From Cytophagales bacterium (lineage in GTDB: Bacteria > Bacteroidota > Bacteroidia > Cytophagales > UBA9547): a stretch of DNA of 64,000 nt. Position 1 is the first letter of the stretch. Each line of letters starts with the position of its first letter. Made by a program: the position numbers and the translations under genes. Shown here in pieces: positions 50,657-64,000 of this stretch. The notes below the pieces were generated by a model that worked only from the letters and a program-made list of their open reading frames with translations, ran no database searches and was not told the origin of the DNA. The stretch lies in assembly GCA_046152935.1 (NCBI GenBank), contig JBJXGB010000222.1:1648-65647 (forward strand), read 5' to 3'.

Positions 50657-51742
50657 TTATATAAATGGGAACTTTGTCACTAATGCCTTTACCTTATTTT
50701 CTCTTATTCCAATAAAAATTTCTGTGCCAATTGTTGAAAATTCCTTTTTCACATATCCCAAACCTATTCCAACACCAAGAATGGGCGATTGTGTTCCAGA
50801 TGTAACTTCTCCAATTTTTTCTTCTTGCGCGTTGAATATTTCGTAATGACTTCGAGGAATTCCTCTTTCTACCATCTTAAAACCCACGAGTTTTTTAGCT
50901 ACACCAGTTTCCTTTTGTAATTTCAGCACCTCTGAATTAATGAAATTCTTTTCAAAACTTGTGATCCAACCTAAGCCAGCTTCAATTGGCGAGGTGGTGT
51001 CATCAATATCATTGCCGTACAGACAAAATCCCATTTCCAATCGCAGCGTATCTCGAGCTCCTAATCCGATTGGTTTGATGCCAAATTCTTTTCCTGCTTC
51101 CAAGATAGCATTCCACATTTCAACTGCGTTTTCATTTGGAATATACACTTCAAAGCCGCCAGCACCAGTGTAGCCAGTATTGGAGATCAAGATGTCCTTA
51201 ATGCCAGCCAATTCAATTTTATGGGCGAAGGTATAATACGACAAAGTCGCTAAATCGAAAGAAGTTAGCTTTTGCAATGCCAATGTTGCTTTGGGCCCTT
51301 GCACGGCAAATAAGCACAATCTATCAGATAAATTCTCTAATTCTGCCCCAAAACTGTTGTTTTTATTGATCCAATTCCAATCTTTCTCAATATTTGAAGC
51401 ATTTACCACCAAAAAATAAGCCTCGTTTGCGATACGATATACAAGAATATCATCTACAATTCCACCATTATCATTCGGCAAACACGAATATTGCACTTTT
51501 CCATCATGCAGTTTTGCTACATTATTGGATGTTACAAATTGTAATAAATCAAACGCTTTGGGCCCACTCACTAGAAATTCGCCCATGTGTGATACATCAA
51601 AAATACCTACTGCATGTCGCACATTGTTGTGCTCATCGATATCAGATGAATACCTTACCGGCATTTCAAAACCCGCAAACGGCACAATTTTGGCACCCAA
51701 TTGCGTATGTACTTGGTGTAGAGGAACTTGCTTTAAATTCAA
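50657..51742 (-). CDS. gcvT: glycine cleavage system aminomethyltransferase T
   Basis: [18 protein letters not shown]...[11 protein letters not shown]...GYTGAGGFE are GcvT blocks. TTG start at 51742. Confidence 0.93.
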
Positions 51743-52139: not shown

Positions 52140-55100
52140 ATGAATTCTATTTTAAAAAGAGTTCTTGAGATAGATGATAAAGAAGTAACCCCAGTATTGC
52201 TACTTCTGGCAAACTCATTTTTTATAGGGGTATTTATCGTGAGCTACGATGTCGCGGCAAACACGATTTTCCTCAACACGTTTGGTACCGAATATTTAAC
52301 ACGTATTCCCATATTTTCCGGAGCTTTGGGCATGATTTCCACCTCAATTTTTGCATATTTTCAACGAAGATTGCCATTTACACGCCTCACTCTATATTGC
52401 TTTAGCATTATTACCATCATAGTAGCCGCACTTTTTTTTGGGCTAGAATTTTACGACAGTCGTGCTTTGAAATTCGTTTCCTATTTACTTTTAGGTCCAA
52501 TCAATACCATTTTTATTCTGTGTTTTTATGGTACAGTTTCTCGTTCTTTCTCATTAAAAAGAGAGCGACACATGACAGGTACGGTAGATCAGGGCCAGAT
52601 GATCGCTACTGCTATCGCCTATTTCACGATTCCACTCGTTTCAGGCATTGTAGTTGATATTACAAAATTTTTCATTGCCAGCGTCATTAGTGGATCGTTA
52701 GCATTCGTGTTCATGTTTATTTTTCTGGTAAAATATGGCATAAATGCCCAACTAGAACGCAGTATCACCCATAATCAACGAGCGAGCAACACAGAATTGG
52801 CCGCCAGCCCTTACGTGCGGATGCTTGCTATGGTGTTTTTTGGCTCAGTACTGGCCACTATCTTTTTAGAGTATTCGTTCCTTACCGTAACAGTCGAAAA
52901 ATACAAAGACCAAGATTCTTTGGCCAGTTTTTTGGGTATTTATGGTGGATTGGTGACGGTATTTAGTGTGATCTTACAGACTTTCGTGGCCGATAGGGTC
53001 ATAAAATTGTATGGGATGAAAATATCTTTGATTTTAATTCCTAGCATATTGGGGCTATTTGCCATCTTGGCATCTTTAATTGGCACGTTTTTTGGCTACA
53101 CGGCCAACGATTCCAGTTTTATTCTCTTCTTTTTGTTTATGGCCATGAGCAAGTTATTTCTTCAATCGCTCAAGGAAGCATTTGAAGATCCTATTGTTAA
53201 AAACTTGTTTATCCCACTCGATTCAAAAAAACGCTACGATATTCAAACCAAAATAGAAGGCTTTTTCAAAGAATTTTCTGGTTTCATTGCAGGTACACTT
53301 CTCACGATTGTCAGTTATTTCAGTTTTGTAAATTTAATTTTTTACTCATATTTCCTTGCTGCTATATGTGCATTCTATTTTTATGTAGTAATAAGGCTGT
53401 TCGTTGAATATCGAAAAAACCTCACAGAAGCCTTGTTGAAGCAACAAGGCAAAGAAGCTGAAAGCGATAAGAAAGAATACGAAGTTACTGATGTACTAAT
53501 AAAAGAGTTGGAAACTGGCAATGTGAATACAATTATTTACACGCTCAAATTACTAGAAAAAATAGAGCCCATCATGGCTGAAGGTCGATTTACAAAATAC
53601 CTGAACGATCAAAACAAAGACCTGAGACAATATTCATTGCTTAGGCTTGAATCAAATAGAGCACTTAAAGCAATTGAAGAAATAACAAAACTAGAAGCCA
53701 GAGAAAACGACCCAGAAATAAAGTTGCTTGCCAGCAAAGCGCTAAAGGAATTAAACAACACCGACAGGGTAGAAATTGGTCATTTAATGACGTACACTTT
53801 GGTAAAATCAAAAAAGGTAGAAACTAGGATATATGCTGCGAGGCTCATTGCCAAAACTACAGAAGATGCTTATTTGCCCCAATTAATGCTTCTTTTGCGA
53901 GATTTGGACCCGAAAGTACGCTTTGCGGCCATGATATCTTCGGCACAAATGCAAAGAACAGAGACCTGGCCCATATTAATAGAATACCTATCTTCTTACA
54001 CATTTTGCAATGTTTCGGCTGCCGCTCTCATTACCTTTGGCGAATTGGTATTGCCTGCACTTGAAGCAGCATTTTATAAAACCAATCAATCGGCTACTAT
54101 TCAAGAAAAAATAGTGCAGATATATGGCAGAATTCAGGGCGATAAAGTGATCTCTCTGCTTTGGAATAAGATTGATTTTCCCGACAAAAAGATAGTAAAT
54201 AATGTTTTATTGTGTTTGAGTAGTTGCGGTTTTAGGCCAGAAGGCGATCGTATTGTGCGTATAAAACAGCAAATCGAGTCTGAAATTGGTAATTCGGCTT
54301 GGAACATTGCAGCCCTTACCGAAATACCGCAAACTGAAGAAACCATATTGCTAAAACAAGCATTGGAAGAGGAGATAGCCTTTAATTTCGAGAACATTTA
54401 TATGCTATTGGCTTTGATATACGATTCTCAAGCCATCAAATTAGTGAAAGACAATATTGAATCTGGCACCGTAGAGGGGTTGGTATATGCAATAGAGCTA
54501 ATCGATGTGTTTATGGCAGAGGAATTGAAACCTATATTTCTGCCATTGATAGAAGACATCTCGCAATCGGAGCGCACAGAAAGATTGCAAGGGAGCTTTC
54601 CAAGGCAAAAACTTGACAGCATTGAAGTGCTAAAACAAATCATCAACCGAGATTATAATAAAGTAAATAAATGGACCAAAGCCTGTGCCATGTATTGCTA
54701 CGCAAATATGCAAGAATCTGAAATGTGCGATGATCTTACGGCCAATTTATTCAACCCCGACCCCTTATTAAGAGAAATATCTGCTTGGTCGATCGTTAAG
54801 AAAGATTATTACAGCTACAAACAAAATTCGAATCGATTGGTAGAAAATATAAGAAAAGAGCTTGATTCACAATTTTTAAATGCCACCCATGATGAAAACG
54901 AGCCTAGAAAACAATTGAGCAGAATTGAAAAAATATTTTTCCTAAAAGAGCTTCCGGCTTTTAAAAATGTTCCGGGTGTTATTTTGGTAGAGTTTGTAGA
55001 GCTAATTGAAGAGGTGATAATAAAAAAAGATGCGGTAATTCTGGATTTTGGCGCTACCGGACAGTCGCCACTTTATATTATTGTAAAGGGAAACGCAGAG

Positions 55101-55364
55101 GTAAAAAGCGAATCTGGCGAAATCATTACAATCATTGGCGAAAAGGAAATGATAGGAGAAATGCTAATACTCGATACCGACCACAACCATCACGAAATTA
55201 TTGCCTCAGAAGATTGCATTCTATTTAAAATAGACAAAGACCGATTTCTGGAGCAAATCACTGATAATTTTGAAATTGCAAAAGAATTAATCCAAGTAAT
55301 TTCTTCAAAATTCAAAGCCATAGAAGAAATAAAGATAGAATCGAAAGAAGTGTTTGAAAGCTAA
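52140..55364 (+). CDS. polytopic membrane protein: 12-TM transporter-like domain + HEAT/ARM-like repeats + C-terminal cyclic-nucleotide-binding-like domain
   Basis: 12 hydrophobic helices in aa 1-425. HEAT-like repeats in aa ~450-900 (LRDLDPKVRFAAMISSAQ, ENDPEIKLLASKALKEL, NPDPLLREISAWSIVKK). CNB-like beta-roll in aa 926-1055 (FLKELPAFKNVPG...IIGEKEMIGEMLIL...). Confidence 0.7.
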   Translation: MNSILKRVLEIDDKEVTPVLLLLANSFFIGVFIVSYDVAANTIFLNTFGTEYLTRIPIFSGALGMISTSIFAYFQRRLPFTRLTLYCFSIITIIVAALFFGLEFYDSRALKFVSYLLLGPINTIFILCFYGTVSRSFSLKRERHMTGTVDQGQMIATAIAYFTIPLVSGIVVDITKFFIASVISGSLAFVFMFIFLVKYGINAQLERSITHNQRASNTELAASPYVRMLAMVFFGSVLATIFLEYSFLTVTVEKYKDQDSLASFLGIYGGLVTVFSVILQTFVADRVIKLYGMKISLILIPSILGLFAILASLIGTFFGYTANDSSFILFFLFMAMSKLFLQSLKEAFEDPIVKNLFIPLDSKKRYDIQTKIEGFFKEFSGFIAGTLLTIVSYFSFVNLIFYSYFLAAICAFYFYVVIRLFVEYRKNLTEALLKQQGKEAESDKKEYEVTDVLIKELETGNVNTIIYTLKLLEKIEPIMAEGRFTKYLNDQNKDLRQYSLLRLESNRALKAIEEITKLEARENDPEIKLLASKALKELNNTDRVEIGHLMTYTLVKSKKVETRIYAARLIAKTTEDAYLPQLMLLLRDLDPKVRFAAMISSAQMQRTETWPILIEYLSSYTFCNVSAAALITFGELVLPALEAAFYKTNQSATIQEKIVQIYGRIQGDKVISLLWNKIDFPDKKIVNNVLLCLSSCGFRPEGDRIVRIKQQIESEIGNSAWNIAALTEIPQTEETILLKQALEEEIAFNFENIYMLLALIYDSQAIKLVKDNIESGTVEGLVYAIELIDVFMAEELKPIFLPLIEDISQSERTERLQGSFPRQKLDSIEVLKQIINRDYNKVNKWTKACAMYCYANMQESEMCDDLTANLFNPDPLLREISAWSIVKKDYYSYKQNSNRLVENIRKELDSQFLNATHDENEPRKQLSRIEKIFFLKELPAFKNVPGVILVEFVELIEEVIIKKDAVILDFGATGQSPLYIIVKGNAEVKSESGEIITIIGEKEMIGEMLILDTDHNHHEIIASEDCILFKIDKDRFLEQITDNFEIAKELIQVISSKFKAIEEIKIESKEVFES

Positions 55365-55378
55365 TAATAAAATCGGAG

Positions 55379-56860
55379 ATGAATTTTACATTTGATATAT
55401 ACATAAGCTATGCTTTAAAAGATAATCACCAAACTGACTCTCAAGCAGGATGGGTGAGTAATTTTCAGCGTTTTTTAGAAACTCTCATCTTTCAAATTAT
55501 GGGCGAAAAGCCTAGTTTTCTAAATTATGAAAGCCAAGAAAAACCTGCAAAATCAGAATTAGTAAAAGTGGCGGTGTTTGTATGCATTGTTTCGCCAGAA
55601 TATGTAAAAAGCGAGTCTTCGATCGAAGAGATAGACGACTTTTTCAATATAGCCAACACCAACGGAAATCTATTCGTCAATGGCAAAGAAAGGGTACTTA
55701 AGGTAGTGAAATTTCCAGTTCCAATGCTAGAGCAGCCGACTAAAGTAGCGAATCTATTGGAATACGATTTGTATCAAACCGATAGTATCACTGGACAGCC
55801 TAATGAATTTGTAGATTTTTTCAATATTGAAGCTCAAAGAAAATATTGGCTAAAAATAGTAGACTTAGCTTACGATATTTCTGCGATCTTAAAATCAAAT
55901 CGGAAGCGTAGCGTAGCTCAACAAGACTATTCGATTTACAACGAAAAAAATGTGTATTTAGCAGAATCCGGCTTTGATTTACAACTACATAGAGATAGCA
56001 TCAAACGCGAACTTACCAGACATGGTTTCCGTGTTTTGCCCGACCACGCCTTGCCCACAAATCTGTTAGAACTTGAATTAGCCATCAAAAAAGACATCGA
56101 ACGCTCGAGGCTTTCCATACATTTGGTTGGCGATAGCTATGGTGAATATGCGCCCACATCTCCCAAATCAATACTAGAAATTCAGAATAAACTGGCTGGT
56201 GATCACAGCATTATTTCATCTGGCTCTGCAAACAGTAGATTTAGCCGTCTGATCTGGATTTCGCCCGATGCAAAACTCGACAATGACAAGCAAAAAATGT
56301 TTATCGATAATTTGAGGCGAGATCTTGAAGCCAATGAAGGAGCTGAAATACTTCAGTCGCCCATTGAAGACTTCAAAATGGTGGTTTTAGGAGAATTACT
56401 AGATTTGAACATTGAAAAATTAAAAAGGGAAACCATTTTGAGTGGTCAAATTAACCAAGACAAAAAAAACATTTATCTTATATTTGACAATGTAGATCGG
56501 ATTGAAGCTCAGAAAATAGCCGATTTTTTAAATTACAAGGGCTATCAAACAATATTGCCTTCTTTTGAAGGCGAACTTTTAGAATTGAGAGAAATTCATC
56601 TCAATAATTTGAAACAATGCGATGCAGCCCTCATCTACATTGATAAAGTAAATGATTTGTGGGTACAAATGAAATTTTTAGATTTGCTAAAAGCACCTGG
56701 ACTAGGCCGTACAAAACAAGAGCTATTCAAAGCCCTTGTTTTAGGCAAAGATGTCAAAAATAGAGCTGGAGATTTGAATAAATTCGATGCCCCAGTATTT
56801 GAAATAAACGACAATATTGAAAATTCATTAGCCGGATTTATCAAAGAATTTGCACTATGA
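55379..56860 (+). CDS. protein with an N-terminal TIR-like domain followed by two further TIR/flavodoxin-like modules
   Basis: FDIYISYALKD...W...VAVFVCIVSPEYVKSESSIEEI fits the bacterial TIR pattern (D[IV]FISY..D; S..Y..S.....E). Internal repeats KNVYLAESGFD...GFRVLPD and KNIYLIFDNVD...GYQTILP. Confidence 0.65.
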   Translation: MNFTFDIYISYALKDNHQTDSQAGWVSNFQRFLETLIFQIMGEKPSFLNYESQEKPAKSELVKVAVFVCIVSPEYVKSESSIEEIDDFFNIANTNGNLFVNGKERVLKVVKFPVPMLEQPTKVANLLEYDLYQTDSITGQPNEFVDFFNIEAQRKYWLKIVDLAYDISAILKSNRKRSVAQQDYSIYNEKNVYLAESGFDLQLHRDSIKRELTRHGFRVLPDHALPTNLLELELAIKKDIERSRLSIHLVGDSYGEYAPTSPKSILEIQNKLAGDHSIISSGSANSRFSRLIWISPDAKLDNDKQKMFIDNLRRDLEANEGAEILQSPIEDFKMVVLGELLDLNIEKLKRETILSGQINQDKKNIYLIFDNVDRIEAQKIADFLNYKGYQTILPSFEGELLELREIHLNNLKQCDAALIYIDKVNDLWVQMKFLDLLKAPGLGRTKQELFKALVLGKDVKNRAGDLNKFDAPVFEINDNIENSLAGFIKEFAL

Positions 56861-59800
56861 CACCTGAAATAAATACCAACCAAGACGTAGCCAAGCAAAA
56901 GCTGGTAAAAAATCACAGCAACCCATTCCCAGGCCTGCGACCATTTAGCATGGACGAAAGCCATTTATTCTTTGGGCGAGAAGGGCAAAGCGATGAAGTT
57001 TTGAGGAAAATCTCTGAAAATAAATTCGTAGCTGTCATTGGCTCGTCTGGCAGCGGAAAGTCGTCTTTTATATATTGTGGCGTAATACCAATATTATATG
57101 GTGGTTTTCTTACAAAAATTGGCACTAATTGGGACGTAATCGTTACCAGACCAGGCGGTGGCCCAATCGACAACTTAGCCGAATCTATAGCCAAAAAAGA
57201 TAAAAATTACAGTTCACTCACTAGAGAGGAAAAAACCTTACAAAAAACCATCACTTCTACGCTTCTAAGAAGCAGCTCCTTGGGCATAACGGAAGCGGTG
57301 AGTAAATACACCGAGACTGAGAACACCAATATATTGTTAATAGTCGATCAATTTGAAGAATTATTTCGTTTCAAAAAGAATGAGGAAAACGAAGGAAGCA
57401 GTGAATCATTGGCGTATGTAAATCTTTTGGTAGATGCGGTACAAAATGCAGGAAACCACATATATGTAGCAGCCACAATGCGATCCGATTTTATAGGCGA
57501 ATGTGCTCAATTTCCACAACTTACAAGACTTATCAATCAAAGTAATTACCTTATTCCTCAAATGACGAGGGAACAAAAACGCTCAGCAATATTTGGGCCA
57601 GTTTCTGTTGGTGGAGCTAAAATTACACCTCGTCTTTTGCAACAAATATTAGGCGATCTGGGCGACAATCCCGATCAATTGCCGATCATGGCGCACTCAT
57701 TGATGAGGACTTGGGATTACTGGCAAACAAATAAAGAAGACAATGAGCCAATGGATTTACCTCATTATGAGGCCATTGGCACTATGTCGGGTGCACTTTC
57801 TCAACATGCCAATGAAGCATACGATGAGCTAAATGCCCGTGAGAAAGAAATCTGTGCCATTCTTTTTAAATGCTTAACAGAAAAAACTGGTGATTCTGAT
57901 GGCATTCGCAGACCAACTCGGGTAAATGTGATCTCGAAAATTGCCAATTGCACAGATGATGAAATAATAAATATCGTTGAGGTTTTTCGTAAGCCAGGTC
58001 GGTCGCTCATCATGCCACCTTTTGGTGTAAATCTTTCACCAAATTCGATAGTCGATATTTCGCACGAATCTTTAATGCGAATATGGGTACGACTCAAAAA
58101 CTGGGTTGATGAAGAAGGGCAAGCCGTAGAAATGTATTTACGACTTTCAGATGCTGCTTCCAAATACCAAACTGGAAAATCTGGAATGTGGAGACCACCA
58201 GATTTGCAATTGGCTTTAAATTGGCAAGAAAAGAATATTCCGACATTGGAATGGGCTGTGAGATACAACCCTGCTTATGAAAGAACGATGGTTTTTCTTG
58301 AAACAAGTAAGAAAGCCTTTGAAACAGAGCAGAAAGTAAAAGAGGAACAGCAACGTAAAAGATTGGCTCAAGCCACTCGCACGGCCCTTTTTCTAGGGGT
58401 GCTTACCGTATTGGCGTTGGTAGCATTTGTGTATTCGTTTATATTGAAAATTGAGGCAGACAAACAAACAGGCCTTGCAAAAGAAAGCCAATTACAAGCA
58501 ATAAAACAATCTAAACTGGCCACAAAAAATGCCAAATTAGCTGAAGAGCAACGGATAATTGCCTCTGCAAAAGAAAAAGAAGCAGTTTTGCAATCAGAAG
58601 AAGCCAAGCACCAAAAAGAATTGGCTTTGGTAGCTGCCGATGAGGCGAATTTGCAAAAATCTTTTGCTCAAAAAAGCTTAGTAAGAGCCAACGTGCAAAC
58701 CAAAATTGCTGAAGAACAGAAAGCATTGGCTCTATTAAATGAGCAGAAAGCCAAAGATTCGCAAATAAAGGCAGAAAGAGCCCAAACTGACGCCTCAAGA
58801 CAACGTTTTTTATCTATTGCACAAGCCATGTCCGTGAAATCTTTGCAGATTTTAGATACCACGACCAAAGTGCTGGTGGCTCAACAAGCGTTCAAATACA
58901 ACCGAGATTTTAAAGGAAATCCACACAGCCACGATGTATACGATGGCTTGTATTACGCTACAAAATTTCTTTTTCACGACAATCATAATAGCCTAAAAGG
59001 CCATTCGGATGCTGTGAGAGGTGTGGTATTCGCTCCAAATGGAGATTTGTACACCGCAGGAAGCGATGGAAAAGTACTAAAATGGAGCATGGAAAATGGG
59101 ATATATAAAAGTGTATTATTCCATAAAAATTCCTTTATCAACAGAAATATCATAATCAGCAGCAACGGCAAATGGCTGGCTTTGGTTGGCGAAGCACCAT
59201 TTATACAACTGTTTGATTTATCAAACCCAAACAGCAAGCCCAAAAAGCTGTATGGGCATAAAGGACAAATCTGGACAGCTACTTTCATGCCTGACAACCA
59301 AAATTTGGTTTCAATTGGTTCTGATAGTTCTATTCTGATGCGAAATTTGGATACTGACAAATATTTTTTAGTAGCTAAAACGAGCACAAAAGTCAAAACA
59401 CTAGCTACCAGTTCTGTTGGCAATTATATAGCAGGTGGCGATGAAATCGGCAATATTTTTGTTTGGGATGTTGGCAAAACGAAAGCCCCAATGGTAATTA
59501 CATCAAAAAACCTTAAGAAAATACAATCTCTATCTATTAGTCTGGATGGTAAATATTTGGCAGCTGGCGATGAACATGGTTTGGTGAAAATATGGGACGC
59601 ATTCGATAACTTCAAATTGACAGCCAACCTTACAGGCCACCGATCTCGCATTAATGATTTAAAATTTGACCCAAAAAGTGAAGTTCTAGCAACAGCCAGC
59701 TTCGATGGAAGCGTAAGAATGTGGGATTTAGATCACTTAAACGAGCAGCCAATTACACTTCGAGATCACAATTCTTGGGTTTGGTCCGTAGCTTTTACAG

Positions 59801-60006
59801 GCGATGGTCTAAACATAGTAACAGGCTGTGTAGATAATTTAATCAGAATTTATCCGACCAATGCAGAATCTATGGCCGATAAAATATGCTCGAAATTAAA
59901 ACGCAACATGACACCTGCCGAATGGACTGCCTATGTAGCCAAGGATATTAGCTTTGAAGAAACATGCCCAGGATTGCCTCAAGGTAGAAATCAAGAATTG
60001 GAATAG
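56857..60006 (+). CDS. STAND-type P-loop NTPase - single TM helix - coiled coil - WD40 repeat protein
   Basis: NPFPGLRPFSMDESHLFFGRE + Walker A GSSGSGKSS (57040-57063) + Walker B ILLIVDQFEELF. TM helix TALFLGVLTVLALVAFVYSFIL (58381-58446) preceded by RKR..R. ~125-aa A/K/E/Q coiled coil. At least 6 WD40 repeats (GHSDAVRGVVF...GSDGKVLKW; GHRSRINDLKF...SFDGSVRMWD). The ATG overlaps the upstream stop (ATGA). Confidence 0.8.
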   Translation: MTPEINTNQDVAKQKLVKNHSNPFPGLRPFSMDESHLFFGREGQSDEVLRKISENKFVAVIGSSGSGKSSFIYCGVIPILYGGFLTKIGTNWDVIVTRPGGGPIDNLAESIAKKDKNYSSLTREEKTLQKTITSTLLRSSSLGITEAVSKYTETENTNILLIVDQFEELFRFKKNEENEGSSESLAYVNLLVDAVQNAGNHIYVAATMRSDFIGECAQFPQLTRLINQSNYLIPQMTREQKRSAIFGPVSVGGAKITPRLLQQILGDLGDNPDQLPIMAHSLMRTWDYWQTNKEDNEPMDLPHYEAIGTMSGALSQHANEAYDELNAREKEICAILFKCLTEKTGDSDGIRRPTRVNVISKIANCTDDEIINIVEVFRKPGRSLIMPPFGVNLSPNSIVDISHESLMRIWVRLKNWVDEEGQAVEMYLRLSDAASKYQTGKSGMWRPPDLQLALNWQEKNIPTLEWAVRYNPAYERTMVFLETSKKAFETEQKVKEEQQRKRLAQATRTALFLGVLTVLALVAFVYSFILKIEADKQTGLAKESQLQAIKQSKLATKNAKLAEEQRIIASAKEKEAVLQSEEAKHQKELALVAADEANLQKSFAQKSLVRANVQTKIAEEQKALALLNEQKAKDSQIKAERAQTDASRQRFLSIAQAMSVKSLQILDTTTKVLVAQQAFKYNRDFKGNPHSHDVYDGLYYATKFLFHDNHNSLKGHSDAVRGVVFAPNGDLYTAGSDGKVLKWSMENGIYKSVLFHKNSFINRNIIISSNGKWLALVGEAPFIQLFDLSNPNSKPKKLYGHKGQIWTATFMPDNQNLVSIGSDSSILMRNLDTDKYFLVAKTSTKVKTLATSSVGNYIAGGDEIGNIFVWDVGKTKAPMVITSKNLKKIQSLSISLDGKYLAAGDEHGLVKIWDAFDNFKLTANLTGHRSRINDLKFDPKSEVLATASFDGSVRMWDLDHLNEQPITLRDHNSWVWSVAFTGDGLNIVTGCVDNLIRIYPTNAESMADKICSKLKRNMTPAEWTAYVAKDISFEETCPGLPQGRNQELE

Positions 60007-60042: not shown

Positions 60043-61110
60043 ATGTCAATTCGTATTTTCAAAAAAGCAATTCAATACATGTTGCCATTCGTAGTGTTTG
60101 CTTCTTCCGCACAAATCCCACTTAAAAGTTCGTGTAGTCAAAAGCTAAAGGAGATGCAAAAAAACTATGAGCAAGGCATTTTATCCACCATAGCAAACGA
60201 TTTGGAAGATTGTATGTTTGACGGATTTACAAAAACCGAAAAATTGCAAGGCTATAGGCTCATTATTCTTTCTTATTTGTTTCTTGATGAGAACAGAAAT
60301 GCCGAGAAAAAAATGAACGAGTTGTTGGTATATGAGCCTGATTACCAACCAAATAAAGCTTTAGATCCGGTTGAATATGTAAAACTTTACGAATCTTTCA
60401 ATGTATTGCCCAATATTTCGTTTGGCGTAAGTATAGGTGCGAATCAAAGTGCTGTAAATGCTGGATCGACCTACGGAGTTGGAAATACGGAGGTCATTCC
60501 AGTAAAATTTACTGGTGGAATTGGCTTAAATTTTGGCGTTTGTGCAGATTTACTTCTCTATAAAAATCTATTCTTGACTGTTGAAGGATATTATACAACA
60601 AAAAACTTTAGTTCTAAGCAACCCATTCTTAACTCCTCAGAACTCAATACCACCGAAAGTCAAACATCTATTAGCACTCCGCTCACCTTAAAATACTCAA
60701 TTGGCACCCGAAAAATAAGATTTTTTGTGCGATCAGGCTTTTCATTAGATTACTTACTAAGCTCTCAAAACGAATTGATAAGAAAAAACATTATTACAGA
60801 CCAAAACGACTTTGCGGGAGCCAGTATAAGTATGGATAGTCAAAGAAATAAAATTAACTTTTCGGCAGTATTTGGGGGTGGCATTACCTACAAATTAGGG
60901 TACGGTTTTGCCTTCATCGATGCTAGGTATTTGTACGGCCTCACCAATTATTCTAATTCAAAAGTTAGATATAATTTTTTCGACACCCAAGTCACTAATT
61001 ATGGCTATGTCGACCCAGATTTTGGATTAAATAATGTTCAGTTGAGTATAGGATATATGTATTCTCTCTATAAAGTAAAGAAGAAAAAAAGTAATTTTAT
61101 CATTGATTAA
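60043..61110 (+). CDS. outer-membrane beta-barrel protein with N-terminal helical (TPR-like) domain
   Basis: Signal peptide (MLPFVVFASSAQ). ~95-aa helical region. Then alternating beta-strand pattern typical of small OM barrels (FGVSIGANQS, GGGITYKLGYGFAFIDARYLYGL, LSIGYMYSL). Confidence 0.6.
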   Translation: MSIRIFKKAIQYMLPFVVFASSAQIPLKSSCSQKLKEMQKNYEQGILSTIANDLEDCMFDGFTKTEKLQGYRLIILSYLFLDENRNAEKKMNELLVYEPDYQPNKALDPVEYVKLYESFNVLPNISFGVSIGANQSAVNAGSTYGVGNTEVIPVKFTGGIGLNFGVCADLLLYKNLFLTVEGYYTTKNFSSKQPILNSSELNTTESQTSISTPLTLKYSIGTRKIRFFVRSGFSLDYLLSSQNELIRKNIITDQNDFAGASISMDSQRNKINFSAVFGGGITYKLGYGFAFIDARYLYGLTNYSNSKVRYNFFDTQVTNYGYVDPDFGLNNVQLSIGYMYSLYKVKKKKSNFIID

Positions 61111-61111
61111 T

Positions 61112-62386
61112 ATGCGATTATCTTTATTCAACAAATCATCGATTTGCCTTTTAATATTTTTTTCAATCGTCAATTTTGTGGGCTGCAATAGAATTGATGT
61201 ATCTCCCAATCTATCGAAAGCGTTCATAAAATTTTATGGGGGAAATGGCTCAGAAATTTCTTCTAAAATGCTGCTGTTGAACGATGGTTCTTTCTTGATG
61301 CTGGGCACAAGCTCCTCTTTCAACACAAATGACACAACAGATATTTATTTGGTGAAATCCAATGACAAAGGCAATAAAATTTGGGAAAAAAACTATGGCA
61401 ATGGTCTTTTTGAAATCGCAGAGGTAATACGCAAATCGACCGACAATACGGTGGTGATGCTTGGCACTTCTGGCGATGTAGCCACAGGAAATGCAAGCAT
61501 TTATCTTGCTAAAATCAACCCAAACGATGGTGCATTGGTTTGGCAAAAAACATTAAAAAACAACAACAAAAGTACATACGGTTATGATCTTTCTGTTGAT
61601 GCCAGTGGTTCAATATTTGTGGTGGGTGCTACGGACACGCTTACGAATATTGGCCTGTTGAAAAATGTATATATCACCAAATTAAATGCAGACGGTTCGG
61701 AAAATAACACCATTCCTACCCTAGGGCTAGATAGCAGAAATAATCTTGCTAGAAACATTATTGACATCAATGGCAATGAGGTTTCTTGCTTGGTAAATAC
61801 CACTATTTCTGTTGATGTAAACGGCTCTCCACAGACACAAGCTTCCCCTATTTTTGTAAATATTAAGCTTGATGTTGGTCGAGCTACATTGCAAGTAAAC
61901 AAAAGCTCGCCACAAATCGGTGAATTGAGCATACAAAATGCTAACCAGATGAAAAAAACAGCTGATGGGGGTTACATCGTAGTGGGCTCCTGTATAAAAA
62001 ACGGAGTCAAAAATATGTATTTACTCAAATTGGATAAGGATTTTAACAAAACTGACGGCAAAGGTTGGTTTCAGTTTTATAGTGATGAGGGCGATAGTGA
62101 AGGCTTAAATGTGATCCAATGCACTGATGGGGGCTATGCGGTTTGTGGCACTACCTTTTCGAATACTTTTAATAATAATATTGCACTGCTTCGTACCAAT
62201 GCCAATGGCGATGCATTGTTTATGAAAAATTATGGCGGAACTGGCAATGATTTGGGGACAGATATTACCCAAACAAACGATGGTGGATTTGCCATTTTGA
62301 GCACCATAGAATTATTAAATTCACCACAAAACAGGCCCGTGATGTCGCTCCTAAAGACCAATGCCAATGGTAATTTAGAAAACTAA
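61112..62386 (+). CDS. lipoprotein built from ~6-7 beta-propeller-like repeats
   Basis: Lipobox NFVGC. Repeats of the form [DG]G[GS][FY].[IV].G.T......D.[YL]L.K.N..G...W (e.g. DGSFLMLGTSSS...DIYLVKSNDKGNKIW; DGGYAVCGTTFS...IALLRTNANGDALF). ATG 1 nt after the upstream stop. Alternative TTG at 61103. Confidence 0.6.
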   Translation: MRLSLFNKSSICLLIFFSIVNFVGCNRIDVSPNLSKAFIKFYGGNGSEISSKMLLLNDGSFLMLGTSSSFNTNDTTDIYLVKSNDKGNKIWEKNYGNGLFEIAEVIRKSTDNTVVMLGTSGDVATGNASIYLAKINPNDGALVWQKTLKNNNKSTYGYDLSVDASGSIFVVGATDTLTNIGLLKNVYITKLNADGSENNTIPTLGLDSRNNLARNIIDINGNEVSCLVNTTISVDVNGSPQTQASPIFVNIKLDVGRATLQVNKSSPQIGELSIQNANQMKKTADGGYIVVGSCIKNGVKNMYLLKLDKDFNKTDGKGWFQFYSDEGDSEGLNVIQCTDGGYAVCGTTFSNTFNNNIALLRTNANGDALFMKNYGGTGNDLGTDITQTNDGGFAILSTIELLNSPQNRPVMSLLKTNANGNLEN

Positions 62387-62424: not shown

Positions 62425-64000
62425 ATGAAAATAAAATTAACTTTATTATTTCAGGTATTTGCCCTCTTTATTTTTTTTTGTTGCCAAGGTCAAATCAATG
62501 TTTCACCTGCTACTGGAGGGATAAATATTTGTACTGGTTCGGTCGCAACTCTTTCGAATATTACAATTACAGCATCTAATATAAATGATTTTAATAATGG
62601 TTCGAACACCAACGATGATGGCTACAAATTATTTTTGCCAACGGGTTTCATTTTTGCTGAAGTGCCAGCTGTCACTACCATATCTGGCTCTACTAATATT
62701 GAAATAGATTATGGATATGTAGGTACAGTTACATCATCTACATTTCGATTTAGATATTCTACTTCGGGTTCAGTTGCAGTAAATGACGGTTTTGTCATTT
62801 CAAATATAAAAGTATTGTCTACCTCTGCTGGATTTGGTTTTATTACAAGAATTAATGATGGTCTGTTAAACAACGATGCGACTGTAACAGGAAGTTATGG
62901 CATAAATTATGGTTTGCTTTCAAGTATCAACACACCGAATTTAACGCCAATAGTAGCTAATGCATCAGTCTGCGGGGCAGATTTGATTAGTTTTGTACCC
63001 AACACAGTGTCAGGAGTTAGCTACAATTTTTACACGATGAGCAATAATTTGGTGGCCATGAATGCTACCTCTTACTCAAAAACCTATGCGAATGGTGTAG
63101 TTGAGAGCTTTCAAATTGCGCCAGTTTCTGGAATCTGCCAAGCAAATAATAGTCTTTGGGCTACCGTTACTGGCACTTCCTTCAATGTACCTTCTGCACC
63201 GTCTGCAGCAAACACCACTAGCCAATTAAGCGTATGCGAAGGTTCGGGGTCAAATCCTACACTGTCTGTCACGGGCGGAACATTATTCAACTGGTACGCA
63301 GATCAGAATCTCACTATTTTACTTGGGTCATCTTCTGGTGGCTACATTCCTTCACCTGCAATCATTACGTCAGCTGCGGGTGCAAATTTCGACTATTATG
63401 TCACTAGCAAGCAAGGAGATTGCGAAAGTCCTTCGAGAAAAATATCAGTAACGGTAACAGATGTGCCTAGCTTTTTGATTACAAATTTGTCATCGAGCTA
63501 TTGTGCTAGTTCTCAATCTATTACGATAAATGCATTCCCAACTATTTCAGGTGCAAATGGCATATTTACTGCTACAAAACTTTCGGGACCAGGAAATATT
63601 TCAAATTTTTTAACTTTTACTGGCGGTAATTATAGCGTATCACCTGCCAATGTCACAGGATTAAGTTCAACTACTGGCACAAATATAAATTTGATATATA
63701 CTGTAACTGTAAATGGATGTGTTTCAACTGCTTCAAATACTACCAATATATTTGCTTTGCCATCTGTAGATTTTGTTTTGCCAAGTAGCCCTACTCTTGG
63801 TTTAATTAGGGATACTGACCCTCCTTTCTCATTGGTAGGAAGCCCTGCAGATGGTAGTTTTGCAGGAACTGGTGTTGCAGGCAATGATTTTGACGTACGA
63901 TTATTAACAACTGGTACTTACACAGTTACGTACACTGCCAGCTTAAATGGATGTACAAACAGTATCAACAAAAACATTACTGTAGTAACCAATACAGGCA
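62425..64000 (+). CDS. large secreted cell-surface protein with Cys-containing Ig-like repeats, 5' part (runs off the right edge)
   Basis: Own translation: MKIKLTLLFQVFALFIFFCCQGQINVSPATGG..., open to position 64000. Recurring units with C.G/NGC and '...WY' (LSVCEGSGSNPTLSVTGGTLFNWYAD...GDCESPSRKISVTV). These resemble Ig-like repeats of Cytophaga-type gliding/T9SS adhesins. Confidence 0.6.
   Translation, partial: MKIKLTLLFQVFALFIFFCCQGQINVSPATGGINICTGSVATLSNITITASNINDFNNGSNTNDDGYKLFLPTGFIFAEVPAVTTISGSTNIEIDYGYVGTVTSSTFRFRYSTSGSVAVNDGFVISNIKVLSTSAGFGFITRINDGLLNNDATVTGSYGINYGLLSSINTPNLTPIVANASVCGADLISFVPNTVSGVSYNFYTMSNNLVAMNATSYSKTYANGVVESFQIAPVSGICQANNSLWATVTGTSFNVPSAPSAANTTSQLSVCEGSGSNPTLSVTGGTLFNWYADQNLTILLGSSSGGYIPSPAIITSAAGANFDYYVTSKQGDCESPSRKISVTVTDVPSFLITNLSSSYCASSQSITINAFPTISGANGIFTATKLSGPGNISNFLTFTGGNYSVSPANVTGLSSTTGTNINLIYTVTVNGCVSTASNTTNIFALPSVDFVLPSSPTLGLIRDTDPPFSLVGSPADGSFAGTGVAGNDFDVRLLTTGTYTVTYTASLNGCTNSINKNITVVTNTG

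What the first reader, a model, noticed from the sequence alone, without database searches (positions are those of the whole stretch)
56857..60006. STAND NTPase and WD40 propeller separated by a single TM helix, implying the WD40 sensor is extracytoplasmic
Seen in sequence:
- The N-terminal half has the motif string NPFPGLRPF..DE..LFFGRE, then GSSGSGKSS (Walker A), then LLIVDQFEELF (Walker B). I recognise this as the signature of the 'novel STAND (nSTAND1-like)' NTPases that usually carry WD40/TPR arrays.
- One strongly hydrophobic 22-aa segment (aa 509-530, nt 58381-58446) follows. It is preceded by QQRKRLAQATR, which is positive, and followed by a near-neutral KIEADKQ.
- Next comes ~125 aa of A/K/E/Q heptad-like coiled coil (nt ~58447-58821), then at least 6 WD40 repeats (nt ~58993-59900).

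Inference:
- A single-pass helix must put the two halves on opposite sides of the inner membrane.
- The NTPase needs cytoplasmic NTP, and the positive-inside rule agrees. The coiled-coil stalk and WD40 propeller would therefore be periplasmic.
- STAND/NLR-like sensors are normally thought of as cytosolic. A periplasm-facing sensor would be mechanistically unusual, and it fits the OM barrel and lipoprotein encoded downstream.
Basis: partly seen in the sequence, partly recalled or inferred. Interest (0 to 1): 0.7.

Follow-up and report, generated by a model that had tools for sequence, protein, structure and literature searches.

The report
Membrane-spanning STAND NTPase with periplasmic WD40
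This gene encodes an NLR-like ATPase switch anchored in the inner membrane, with its WD40 propeller almost certainly held out in the periplasm on a rigid ~19 nm stalk; the domain layout is already listed in published tables, but its topology and its conserved outer-membrane partner genes had not been discussed.

Summary
ORF 56857-60006 (1049 aa) has an nSTAND1 NTPase (Pfam E=2e-90), one strong TM helix (aa 509-530), a 132-aa helical stalk and a 7-bladed WD40 propeller.

An N-in/C-out topology is well supported computationally:
- All 269 close homologues keep the TM, and the positive-inside bias held in all 117 single-peak orthologues tested.
- Two C-terminal cysteines are kept or lost together, as in a disulfide.
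- A cyanobacterial homologue carries a secreted-type PPC domain after its TM.
- 6 of 8 distant nSTAND1 proteins, from three other phyla, have the same Arg-flanked TM.

The architecture is not new. Kaur et al. 2021 (eLife, source data) list "nSTAND1+TM" 412 times. They include orthologues with the same upstream genes (12TM+cNMP, then TIR+DrHyd).

New here:
- The topology evidence.
- A stalk with Ala at every seventh residue for 17 heptads, with only 7- or 14-residue indels.
- Conservation across Cytophagales of a six-gene cluster that adds an OM barrel, a propeller lipoprotein and a giant T9SS cargo. The module is also co-duplicated in paralogous clusters.

The most likely function is trans-envelope signalling. 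No experiment exists. Interest is moderate.

The parts
52140..55364 (+). g1: about 12-TM NTT/TLC-like (ATP:ADP antiporter-like) membrane domain, then HEAT repeats and a C-terminal cyclic-nucleotide-binding domain (1074 aa)
   Evidence: Pfam cNMP_binding and HEAT_2. About 12 hydrophobic peaks in aa 15-425. PDB sequence match of aa 212-467 to ADP,ATP carrier 9j3n, E=3e-6, and of the C-terminus to PKG and PycTIR cNMP domains. Present upstream in 66/67 eligible loci. Listed as 'TMx12+cNMP' in the Kaur 2021 source data.
55379..56860 (+). g2: 493-aa cytoplasmic protein of three alpha/beta domains of TIR / DUF4062 (DrHyd-like) type. Its stop codon overlaps the g3 start (ATGA).
   Evidence: Pfam TIR_2 at 26.5 bits (below the 28-bit cut-off) and DUF4062 just above its cut-off (24.9 against 24.7 bits). 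AlphaFold pLDDT 81, domains 1-175, 190-340 and 360-493. Foldseek top hits are TIR domains plus a nucleoside 2-deoxyribosyltransferase. D/E is class-conserved (98%) at aa 83 in the S-x-x-C-L-[DE] motif. Present in 70/75 loci. Listed as 'TIR+DrHyd' in Kaur 2021.
56857..60006 (+). g3: the finding. nSTAND1 NTPase, TM helix, stalk and WD40 propeller, 1049 aa.
56923..58176 (+). nSTAND1 NTPase module (aa 23-440), including Walker A at 57040-57066 and Walker B at 57334-57366
   Evidence: PF20703 E=2.2e-90. Motif coordinates. Most conserved part of the protein (65% median identity).
58276..58380 (+). Conserved cytoplasmic juxtamembrane helix (aa 474-508) ending in the K/R cluster QQRKRLAQATR
   Evidence: AlphaFold predicts one continuous helix over aa 474-570, running through the TM. 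65% median identity. Positive flank.
58381..58446 (+). Single transmembrane helix (aa 509-530)
   Evidence: KD19 2.58, Hessa sum -2.55. Conserved in 269/269 homologues and in 6/8 distant nSTAND1 proteins.
58447..58842 (+). Periplasmic helical stalk (aa 531-662, about 19.6 nm if a straight coiled coil). It contains 17 heptads with Ala at position 0 (A534...A646, nt 58456-58794).
   Evidence: Ala 99% at heptad position 0. Position 3 is Q/A/N. Position 6 is L/I in about 37% of cells. No Pro and 0.4% Gly. Run of 17 against a maximum of 8 in 2000 shuffles. All indels are 7 or 14 aa.
58843..58989 (+). Two linker helices between stalk and propeller (aa 663-711)
   Evidence: AlphaFold H668-684 and H692-706, pLDDT above 85.
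58990..59862 (+). Seven-bladed WD40 propeller (aa 712-1002)
   Evidence: Pfam WD40 and propeller families. AlphaFold pLDDT about 90. Foldseek: 5yzv PkwA and 3ow8 WDR61, TMt 0.9.
59863..60003 (+). C-terminal tail (aa 1003-1049) with the covarying cysteine pair C1011 (59887-59889) and C1037 (59965-59967)
   Evidence: Both 143, neither 12, single 1; Fisher p=5e-17.
60043..61110 (+). g4: outer-membrane beta-barrel with a signal peptide and a ~110-aa N-terminal periplasmic helical domain (355 aa)
   Evidence: NCBIfam TDE1717-family OM barrel (weak). Orthologues hit Pfam OMP_b-brl_2, E=6e-17. Signal peptide. Present in 73/75 loci.
61112..62386 (+). g5: lipoprotein (lipobox ...FVGC) with an SBBP/delta-60-repeat beta-propeller (about 424 aa from the ATG at 61112)
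   Evidence: NCBIfam delta_60_rpt and SBBP lipoprotein. Lipobox. A 380-490 aa lipoprotein ORF follows g4 in the loci inspected.
62425..64000 (+). g6 (5' part only; runs off the window): giant secreted protein with a signal peptide. Orthologues are 1525 to more than 3900 aa T9SS cargo proteins.
   Evidence: Translation is open to the window end. Orthologues carry PKD/Ig/Calx-beta repeats and Por_Secre_tail. An ORF of at least 1000 aa follows in 43/45 loci.

Best explanation
g3 is a single-pass inner-membrane STAND NTPase with N-in/C-out topology. The nSTAND1 ATPase switch and a conserved juxtamembrane helix sit in the cytoplasm. One helix crosses the membrane and continues, without a break in heptad register, into a rigid stalk of 125-146 residues (about 19-22 nm). 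The stalk holds a 7-bladed WD40 propeller, plus a small disulfide-stapled tail, deep in the periplasm near the outer membrane.

Binding of a periplasmic or outer-membrane partner to the propeller changes the packing or oligomeric state of the stalks. That change passes through the TM and juxtamembrane helix to the NTPase. As in other STAND proteins, the NTPase then switches or oligomerises and engages the co-translated TIR/DrHyd-like protein g2. The NTT-like, cyclic-nucleotide-binding membrane protein g1 acts as a further output or regulator.

In Cytophagales the most likely outside partner is the module encoded immediately downstream: OM barrel g4, propeller lipoprotein g5 and the giant T9SS-secreted surface protein g6. 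The six genes would then form an outside-in, trans-envelope signalling device.

Shown: domain identities, TM conservation, charge bias, Cys covariation, heptad-quantised stalk, synteny and co-duplication. Inferred: the topology itself, physical contact with g4-g6, the direction of signalling, and the enzymatic activity of g2.
For: Domains.
TM and positive-inside bias conserved.
Disulfide-like Cys covariation.
PPC domain after the TM in homologue P0227.
The outer half evolves faster.
Stalk: Ala at 99% of 1036 heptad cells, no Pro, and indels only of 7 or 14 aa at scattered sites. This argues for an uninterrupted rod whose register matters.
Continuous helix 474-570 in the model.
Tight operon: 4-nt overlap between g2 and g3, and gaps of 14-38 nt elsewhere.
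Synteny: g1 66/67, g2 70/75, g4 73/75, giant ORF 43/45.
Two paralogous clusters in one genome each keep their own g1, g3, g4 and g5 (L047/L082; Fulvivirga kasyanovii L094/L035).
g2 has a TIR-like fold.
g1 is NTT-like with a cNMP domain.
Periplasmic WD40-type propellers exist in Bacteroidota: PorE (PMC9127263).
Cytophagales-wide distribution at 41-54% identity and constant length suggests vertical inheritance.
Against: There is no experimental topology for any family member. No dedicated topology predictor was available; I used only hydropathy and charge statistics. AlphaFold gives low confidence for aa 557-587 and a break at 571-580, so a folded-back stalk is not excluded by the model. I could not read the coordinates to measure the Cys-Cys distance. 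The Cys-pair statistic is not corrected for phylogeny. Synteny shows linkage, not contact. The published neighbourhood strings stop at g3. Mobile relatives such as the Caballeronia plasmid lack the OM module, so that module is not intrinsic to the family. The catalytic residues of g2 are only class-conserved. A core of Ala plus Gln is atypical for a stable parallel coiled coil, so the oligomeric state is unknown.
Confidence: 0.6

Rival explanations
1. It is a conflict or immune system in the sense of Kaur et al. The periplasmic WD40 propeller watches the envelope for an invader, such as a phage ejection or tail protein or an incoming toxin. It triggers the STAND switch, and the TIR/DrHyd protein then degrades NAD+ or nucleotides (abortive infection). 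The 12TM+cNMP protein is a second effector. The OM genes downstream are neighbours, not partners. The topology is the same as in the best explanation; only the biological role differs.
For: nSTAND1 was defined in counter-invader systems (PMC8195603). Distant relatives carry caspase, CHAT, trypsin or TIR effectors and sit on plasmids next to IS elements. The Caballeronia plasmid has a TIR gene directly upstream of an nSTAND1-TM-WD40 gene. The source table lists 'TIR+DrHyd-> nSTAND1+TM+BetaPropeller' in many phyla. The g1 cNMP domain resembles those of Pycsar effectors. Membrane-associated versions were proposed to intercept invaders at entry (PMC7159879).
Against: No PADLOC defence model matches any of the five proteins beyond generic P-loop or cNMP similarity. 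The cluster appears present across the order Cytophagales at constant length and 41-54% identity, in conserved synteny with OM genes. That is unlike patchy, mobile defence islands. The OM genes are co-duplicated with g3. The propeller is moderately conserved (40% median identity), not hypervariable.
Confidence: 0.25
2. It is a structural or assembly device and not a sensor. The stalk acts as a periplasmic ruler or tether that positions or helps assemble the OM barrel, lipoprotein and giant adhesin. The NTPase powers or checkpoints assembly from the cytoplasm (inside-out), loosely like TolA or GldM spanning the periplasm.
For: Stalk length is held to 16-20 heptads in 116 of 120 orthologues and changes only in whole heptads. 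Linkage to a T9SS cargo gene is constant. GldM/PorM is a single-TM protein spanning the periplasm in the same phylum (PMC9127263).
Against: STAND NTPases are known as slow switches, not motors (family knowledge, not tested here). The presence of TIR-like and cNMP-binding partners points to signalling. Relatives in Gram-positive Actinomycetota keep the TM+WD40 without any outer membrane.
Confidence: 0.1
3. The hydrophobic segment does not span the membrane in the N-in/C-out sense. It could be a peripheral anchor or a buried core helix, or have the opposite orientation. Both halves would then be cytoplasmic and the WD40 would bind cytosolic partners, as in classical STAND proteins.
For: Classical STAND/NLR sensors are cytosolic. 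TM-less nSTAND1+BetaPropeller proteins also exist ('nSTAND1+BetaPropeller' occurs 427 times in the source table; the two TM-less examples I inspected carry pentapeptide or SUMF1 C-termini). No experiment settles the matter.
Against: A 22-residue segment with KD 2.58 and no charged residue is far above the TM threshold. Its hydrophobicity, but not its sequence, is conserved in 269/269 homologues. A single 22-aa helix cannot re-enter the membrane. The N flank was the more positive in all 117 single-peak orthologues tested, and the 6 TM-bearing distant relatives each have an Arg/Lys cluster just before the TM. The covarying Cys pair and the PPC domain after the TM fit an outside location.
Confidence: 0.06

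Closest known systems
nSTAND1+TM+BetaPropeller proteins with upstream 'TMx12+cNMP' and 'TIR+DrHyd' genes (Kaur, Iyer, Burroughs, Aravind 2021, eLife 10:e70394, Figure 2-source data 1, section 8)
   Same: Same family and same architecture. Orthologues from Imperialibacter, Fulvivirga kasyanovii and Rhodocytophaga (the assembly of my L005) are listed with the identical three-gene string. The string 'nSTAND1+TM' occurs 412 times in that file.
   Different: It is recorded only as an architecture string. The main text does not discuss the TM, the topology or a periplasmic propeller ('periplasm' occurs 0 times). The downstream OM barrel, lipoprotein and T9SS cargo genes are not in the strings. The stalk periodicity and the Cys pair are not described.
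Apaf-1 / AP-ATPase-type STAND proteins with C-terminal WD40 sensors
   Same: The order is a P-loop STAND NTPase followed by a WD40 propeller. Foldseek aligns the model over about 1060 columns to Apaf-1 (3j2t, 3sfz, 3shf).
   Different: Apaf-1 is soluble and cytosolic, has an N-terminal CARD, and has no TM or stalk. The NTPase belongs to a different STAND clade. The overall TM-score is low (0.24-0.26).
Single-pass Ser/Thr kinases with external repeat sensors (Planctomycetota STK-TM-WD40/TPR, PMC11032199)
   Same: The logic is the same: a cytoplasmic nucleotide-using domain, one TM, and a WD40 or TPR array predicted to be periplasmic. The nSTAND1 clade likewise alternates between WD40 and TPR after the TM.
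   Different: The cytoplasmic module is a kinase and not a STAND NTPase, so it is analogous and not homologous. No Ala-heptad stalk is reported.
NACHT-TM-CLec DGR targets of Thiohalocapsa PB-PSB1 (Dore et al. 2024, PNAS, PMC10907252)
   Same: A STAND NTPase protein whose C-terminal sensor was predicted to lie in the periplasm because of TM segments.
   Different: The NTPase is NACHT and the sensor is a C-type lectin. It is diversified by a retroelement and is not a conserved chromosomal cluster.
Trans-envelope signalling and periplasm-spanning proteins (FecR-type anti-sigma factors, TolA domain II, GldM/PorM)
   Same: A single TM followed by an elongated periplasmic part that reaches outer-membrane partners. 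GldM/PorM does this in the same phylum. TolA and FecR are cited from general knowledge.
   Different: No sequence or fold relation. Their cytoplasmic parts are short or bind sigma factors, not a 500-aa NTPase. This is a comparison of how it may work, not of membership.

Membership tests
nSTAND1 (Pfam PF20703; Kaur et al. 2021) | Match to the family profile above the curated threshold | tested here: met
   304.5 bits against a cut-off of 27.1, aa 23-440, profile positions 1-374 of 379
nSTAND1 (Pfam PF20703; Kaur et al. 2021) | P-loop NTPase motifs: Walker A GxxxxGK[ST] and Walker B hhhhD followed by acidic residues | tested here: met
   GSSGSGKSS aa 62-70 and LLIVDQFEELF aa 160-170. G62, G65, G67, K68, S69, D164, E167 and E168 are invariant in 62 orthologues.
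nSTAND1 (Pfam PF20703; Kaur et al. 2021) | N-terminal signature P-x-x-G-L-R-P-F ... L-F-F-G-R-[DE], as in the authors' alignment | tested here: met
   NPFPGLRPF...LFFGRE at aa 22-42. The authors' nSTAND1.aln begins 'PYVGLRPFR..ENLLFFGRDEQ...VAVVGSSGSGKSS'.
[quoted passage not shown] | TM segment directly after the NTPase, then a beta-propeller | tested here: met
[quoted passage not shown] | Upstream gene with TIR and DrHyd-like domains | tested here: met
   g2: weak Pfam TIR_2 and DUF4062. Fold matches to TIR domains and to a nucleoside 2-deoxyribosyltransferase. The C. hutchinsonii orthologue is named 'TIR domain-containing protein' in UniRef.
[quoted passage not shown] | Further upstream gene with about 12 TM helices and a cNMP-binding domain | tested here: met
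   g1
Classical STAND/NLR tripartite protein (effector - NTPase - sensor in one chain, cytosolic) | N-terminal effector or adaptor domain fused to the NTPase | tested here: not met
   Only 21 unconserved residues precede the NTPase (12% median identity). The candidate effector is a separate gene.
Classical STAND/NLR tripartite protein (effector - NTPase - sensor in one chain, cytosolic) | Soluble protein, with the sensor in the same compartment as the NTPase | tested here: not met
   A conserved TM with positive-inside bias lies between the two. Topology is inferred, not measured.
Known anti-phage STAND systems (Avs, bNACHT and others in PADLOC-DB 2.0) | Match to a defence-system protein model | tested here: not met
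   Only generic P-loop hits (mad8 and mad3, E of 2e-4 or worse, about 40 residues)
Hat/HatR 'high-affinity carbon uptake protein' (database name of many orthologues) | Homology to, and shared function with, the Synechocystis Hat proteins | not tested
   The name appears on orthologues. The original papers are only cited in PMC6113231 and are not in the library. I treat the name as propagated annotation.
TIR NADase (for g2) | Catalytic glutamate after the beta-C strand | tested here: inconclusive
   D/E in 98% of sequences at aa 83 and 86% at aa 86 in the S-x-x-C-L-[DE]-x-x-[ED] motif, but no invariant Glu. No structural superposition was possible.

The most novel reading that the evidence does not exclude
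In Cytophagales the six genes form a previously unrecognised, vertically inherited trans-envelope receptor. A giant T9SS-displayed surface protein and its OM barrel and lipoprotein are read out in the periplasm by the WD40 propeller on a rigid, register-critical Ala-zipper rod. The signal crosses the inner membrane to an NLR-like ATPase switch, which drives TIR/DrHyd nucleotide chemistry and a cyclic-nucleotide-gated NTT-like transporter. This would be an 'outside-in' bacterial NLR used for cell-surface sensing and not for intracellular immunity.
Probability: 0.3. Interest if true: 0.8.

Novelty: new member of a known kind. Interest (0 to 1): 0.45.

Why it matters
STAND/NLR proteins are studied as cytosolic switches. 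No nSTAND1 protein has a solved structure detectable by sequence search, and I found no functional study of this cluster.

The family is huge: 41,142 cluster representatives. Much of it carries a TM directly after the NTPase. If the post-TM repeat arrays are indeed outside the cytoplasm, a large share of bacterial NLR-like proteins would be transmembrane receptors. That raises a concrete question about how ligand binding outside is coupled to nucleotide exchange or oligomerisation inside.

The Cytophagales version is a good entry point. It is conserved and chromosomal. It is present in the genetically tractable Cytophaga hutchinsonii as CHU_1022-CHU_1027. It comes with a defined candidate partner set and with a stalk whose heptad-quantised length offers a direct mutational test.

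Tried and rejected
(2) PDB sequence searches with the NTPase module, g2 and the stalk gave nothing useful.
(3) PADLOC gave no defence-system assignment.
(4) Literature searches for Hat/HatR, for STAND with periplasmic WD40, and for CHU_1022-1027 found no functional study. Only citations to the 1997 and 2001 Hat papers turned up.
(5) Model coordinates are not exposed to scripts. I therefore could not measure the C1011-C1037 distance or see whether AlphaFold folds the stalk into a hairpin.
(6) I considered a hairpin ('alacoil', antiparallel) reading of the Ala-every-7 stalk, prompted by the low-confidence break at aa 571-580. I think it unlikely. There is no Pro and almost no Gly anywhere in 62 stalks, no conserved turn, and single-heptad indels occur at scattered positions. 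An intramolecular hairpin would need paired changes. It is not excluded.
(7) Gene fusion or mis-assembly is rejected, because the same 1040-1070 aa protein occurs in hundreds of genomes.
(8) An N-out orientation is rejected. There is no signal peptide, the NTPase needs ATP, and the charge bias runs the other way.
(9) The Foldseek search of the full g3 model was swamped by WD40 hits, so it says little about the NTPase fold.


Full report
**Observation.** The ORF at 56857..60006 (+) is real and encodes 1049 aa. Pfam assigns aa 23-440 to nSTAND1 (PF20703, E=2.2e-90, 304.5 bits against a cut-off of 27.1) and the C-terminal third to WD40 propeller families.

The hydrophobic segment at aa 509-530 (nt 58381-58446) is the only TM-grade peak in the protein. 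Its Kyte-Doolittle 19-residue mean is 2.58 and its Hessa-scale sum is -2.55 kcal/mol. The next peak is 1.45, at the Walker A strand. The segment is preceded by QQRKRLAQATR and followed by KIEADKQ.

AlphaFold was run on an alignment of 62 orthologues (mean pLDDT 79). It gives an alpha/beta NTPase with helical domains, then one continuous helix over aa 474-570 that runs through the TM. A low-confidence break follows at 571-580, then a second long helix at 581-662, two linker helices, and a confident seven-bladed propeller at 712-1000. Foldseek places the propeller next to the bacterial PkwA WD40 domain and WDR61 (TM-score about 0.9). It aligns the whole chain loosely to Apaf-1.

**Is the TM a conserved feature?** Yes.
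- Among 120 orthologues (47-100% identity, all Cytophagales or Bacteroidota, 964-1086 aa), every one has a TM-grade peak at aa ~503-531, and 117 have exactly one peak. The sequence of the segment is not conserved, only its hydrophobicity.
- The 15-residue N flank carries 6.6 K+R on average against 2.8 on the C flank. The N side is the more positive in 100% of the 117 single-peak proteins tested.
- An exhaustive HMMER search with the NTPase module alone found 41,142 cluster representatives. All 149 new proteins among the top 150 (44-64% identity, 592-1805 aa long) have a TM directly after the NTPase. After the TM, 113 of them carry one or more WD40 propellers. Thirteen of the other 36 were scanned: 12 carry TPR repeats and one an RDD domain.
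- I then sampled distant relatives (22-33% identity) from annotated plasmids. Six of eight have the same single TM, preceded by an Arg/Lys cluster (RRRRRR, GRRRRRW, RKRRR and similar). These are from Caballeronia, Gloeothece, Streptomyces, Dolichospermum, Rhizobium and Rhodococcus. The two without a TM end in pentapeptide repeats or a SUMF1/FGE domain.

The TM is therefore an old and widespread trait of nSTAND1, not a peculiarity of this gene.

**Which side is which?** No topology predictor or experiment was available, so the evidence is indirect. It is consistent across several lines.
1. The charge bias above.
2. The N-terminal half needs ATP and has no signal peptide.
3. Two near-invariant cysteines in the short tail after the propeller (C1011, C1037) are kept or lost together. 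Both are present in 143 sequences, neither in 12, and one in 1 (Fisher p=5e-17). The double losses involve at least seven different residue replacements. Coupled conservation of a lone Cys pair is what a disulfide gives, and stable disulfides are a mark of the periplasm. The statistic is not phylogenetically corrected.
4. A cyanobacterial homologue (P0227) has a pre-peptidase C-terminal domain inside its post-TM WD40 array. This domain is typical of secreted proteins (PF04151, E=8e-10, above threshold).
5. The post-TM half evolves faster (35-47% median identity) than the cytoplasmic half (65%).
6. WD40-type propellers do function in the Bacteroidota periplasm, for example PorE (PMC9127263).

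I put N-in/C-out at about 0.85.

**The stalk.** From A534 to A646, every seventh residue is alanine for 17 heptads. Across 62 orthologues this position is Ala in 99% of 1036 cells. Position +3 is Gln, Ala or Asn. Position -1 is Leu or Ile in about 37% of cells. The remaining positions are about 55% charged and not conserved.

Shuffling the stalk gives runs of at most 8. There is no proline and only 0.4% glycine. Stalk lengths are 125, 132, 139 or 146 residues. Every indel inside the stalk is exactly 7 or 14 residues, at positions scattered between 551 and 635. Indels of 1-2 residues appear only beyond residue 666. In 116 of 120 orthologues the run spans 16-20 heptads.

This describes an uninterrupted helical rod whose register between membrane and propeller is under selection. 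At 0.1485 nm per residue it is 18.6-21.7 nm long. From memory, that is of the order of the distance spanned by GldM/PorM in the same phylum.

The oligomeric state is open, because an Ala/Gln core is unusual for a parallel coiled coil. Single-heptad indels and the lack of any turn-forming residues make an intramolecular antiparallel hairpin unlikely, but it is not excluded.

**Genomic context.** g3 is the third gene of a tight same-strand cluster.
- **g1** (52140-55364) has about 12 TM helices that match a solved ADP/ATP carrier of the NTT type (9j3n, E=3e-6). HEAT repeats and a cyclic-nucleotide-binding domain follow.
- **g2** (55379-56860) overlaps the g3 start by 4 nt. It is predicted (pLDDT 81) as three alpha/beta domains whose nearest structures are TIR domains and a nucleoside 2-deoxyribosyltransferase. 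An acidic residue is class-conserved where TIR NADases have their catalytic Glu, but no Glu is invariant there.
- **g4** (60043-61110) is an OM beta-barrel with a signal peptide and a helical N-domain.
- **g5** (61112-62386) is a lipoprotein with an SBBP-type propeller.
- **g6** (from 62425) starts a large secreted protein that runs off the window.

In C. hutchinsonii, Imperialibacter and Rhodocytophaga the same six genes occur in the same order. There g6 is a 1525 to 3978-aa protein with PKD/Ig repeats and a T9SS sorting domain.

Across 83 non-redundant Cytophagales loci:

| Gene | Present / eligible loci |
|---|---|
| g1 | 66/67 |
| g2 | 70/75 |
| g4 | 73/75 |
| ORF of at least 1000 aa with signal peptide, after the lipoprotein gene | 43/45 |

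Some genomes hold two diverged copies of the cluster, and each copy keeps its own g1, g3, g4 and g5. Examples are L047 and L082 from one MAG and L094 and L035 from Fulvivirga kasyanovii. The second copy lacks g2. Co-duplication is the best evidence here that the inner- and outer-membrane genes work together. Mobile relatives lack the OM genes. The Caballeronia plasmid, for example, has DUF4231, TIR and nSTAND1-TM-WD40 genes next to an IS3 element.

**Comparison with what is known.** nSTAND1 was defined by Kaur et al. 2021. Their main text does not discuss a TM or the periplasm. Their Figure 2-source data 1, however, contains 'nSTAND1+TM' 412 times. [quoted passage not shown] The orthologues are from Imperialibacter, Fulvivirga kasyanovii and two Rhodocytophaga paralogues from the assembly I fetched as L005.

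So the architecture and the two upstream partners are already catalogued. The strings end at the nSTAND1 gene, and the OM module is not recorded.

A periplasmic location for sensor repeats has been predicted before. It was proposed for Planctomycetota kinase-TM-WD40/TPR proteins (PMC11032199) and for a NACHT DGR target (PMC10907252). Membrane-associated conflict systems have also been proposed to intercept invaders at entry (PMC7159879).

I found no paper mentioning CHU_1022-1027 and no solved structure of the NTPase detectable by sequence. The frequent database name 'Hat/HatR carbon uptake protein' looks like propagated annotation, and I could not test it.

**Mechanism and rivals.** I think the protein is a transmembrane STAND receptor. 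An event at the periplasmic propeller is transmitted along the register-critical rod and the continuous TM and juxtamembrane helix to the NTPase switch. The switch then engages the TIR/DrHyd-like g2, with the cNMP-binding NTT-like g1 downstream or alongside. In Cytophagales the outside partner is most likely the g4-g5-g6 module (confidence 0.6 overall, and about 0.5 for the OM coupling).

- **Immune or conflict sensor (0.25).** This is the main rival, and it shares the same topology. It is favoured by the family's history and its mobile relatives. It is disfavoured by order-wide vertical conservation, the lack of any PADLOC match, a propeller that is not hypervariable, and co-duplication with OM genes.
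- **Structural or assembly role (0.1).**
- **Non-spanning helix with a cytosolic WD40 (0.06).** This last reading conflicts with nearly all the sequence evidence.

**Verdict.** The window gene is one more orthologue of a catalogued but uncharacterised family. The added value is the topology evidence, the heptad-quantised Ala stalk, the Cys pair, and the conserved, co-duplicated outer-membrane module. Together these make a concrete and testable trans-envelope model.

Noticed in passing
window 58456-58794 (aa 534-646 of g3): Alanine at every seventh residue for 17 heptads, 99% conserved across 62 orthologues. Gln/Ala/Asn at +3, no Pro, and only 7- or 14-residue indels. This is an 'Ala-zipper' rod of unknown oligomeric state.
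   Followed up: yes
window 59887-59889 and 59965-59967 (C1011, C1037): The two cysteines in the tail after the propeller are kept or lost together (143 both, 12 neither, 1 single), as expected for a disulfide.
   Followed up: yes
window 52140-55364: g1 fuses an NTT/TLC-type nucleotide-transporter-like 12-TM domain (match to ADP/ATP carrier 9j3n) to HEAT repeats and a cNMP-binding domain. The JGI name for the C. hutchinsonii orthologue is 'AAA family ATP:ADP antiporter'. What it transports, and which nucleotide gates it, are unknown.
   Followed up: partly
window 55379-56860: g2 consists of three consecutive TIR/DUF4062 (DrHyd-like) alpha/beta domains. Only class-conserved acidic residues sit at the TIR catalytic position, so it may be an enzyme or a pure adaptor.
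   Followed up: partly
L035, L041, L082 (Fulvivirga spp. and MAG HKST-UBA61): A second, diverged paralogous cluster in some genomes lacks g2 but keeps g1, g3, g4 and g5. The TIR-like protein is therefore dispensable or shared between copies.
   Followed up: partly
L086 (Caballeronia sp. SBC2 plasmid pSBC2-4, NZ_CP049320.1 18063-28565): A mobile relative has DUF4231, a TIR-domain protein and nSTAND1-TM-WD40 in a row next to an IS3 transposase, without any OM module.
   Followed up: partly
L007 (Raineyaceae MAG): The only locus with 10 kb of upstream sequence that shows no g1 or g2 homologue before the nSTAND1 gene.
   Followed up: no
window 50657-51742 (-) and L001 842-3742: Glycine-cleavage genes lie just upstream of the cluster. 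In the window it is a gcvT-like ORF on the opposite strand (identified from the ORF translation only, no family search run), and in C. hutchinsonii it is GcvP (Pfam GDC-P). This may be a coincidence.
   Followed up: no
orthologues P0065, P0080, P0084, P0094, P0120 and others: Many orthologues are named 'High-affnity carbon uptake protein Hat/HatR' in NCBI and UniRef. The name appears to be propagated from Synechocystis WD40 proteins, with no evidence for this family.
   Followed up: no
P0144 (1138 aa) and P0234 (1333 aa): Two relatives have extra TM segments. P0144 has four TM peaks before a second-half NTPase module and one at its C-terminus. P0234 ends in an RDD-family membrane domain. Other membrane topologies therefore exist in the clade.
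   Followed up: no
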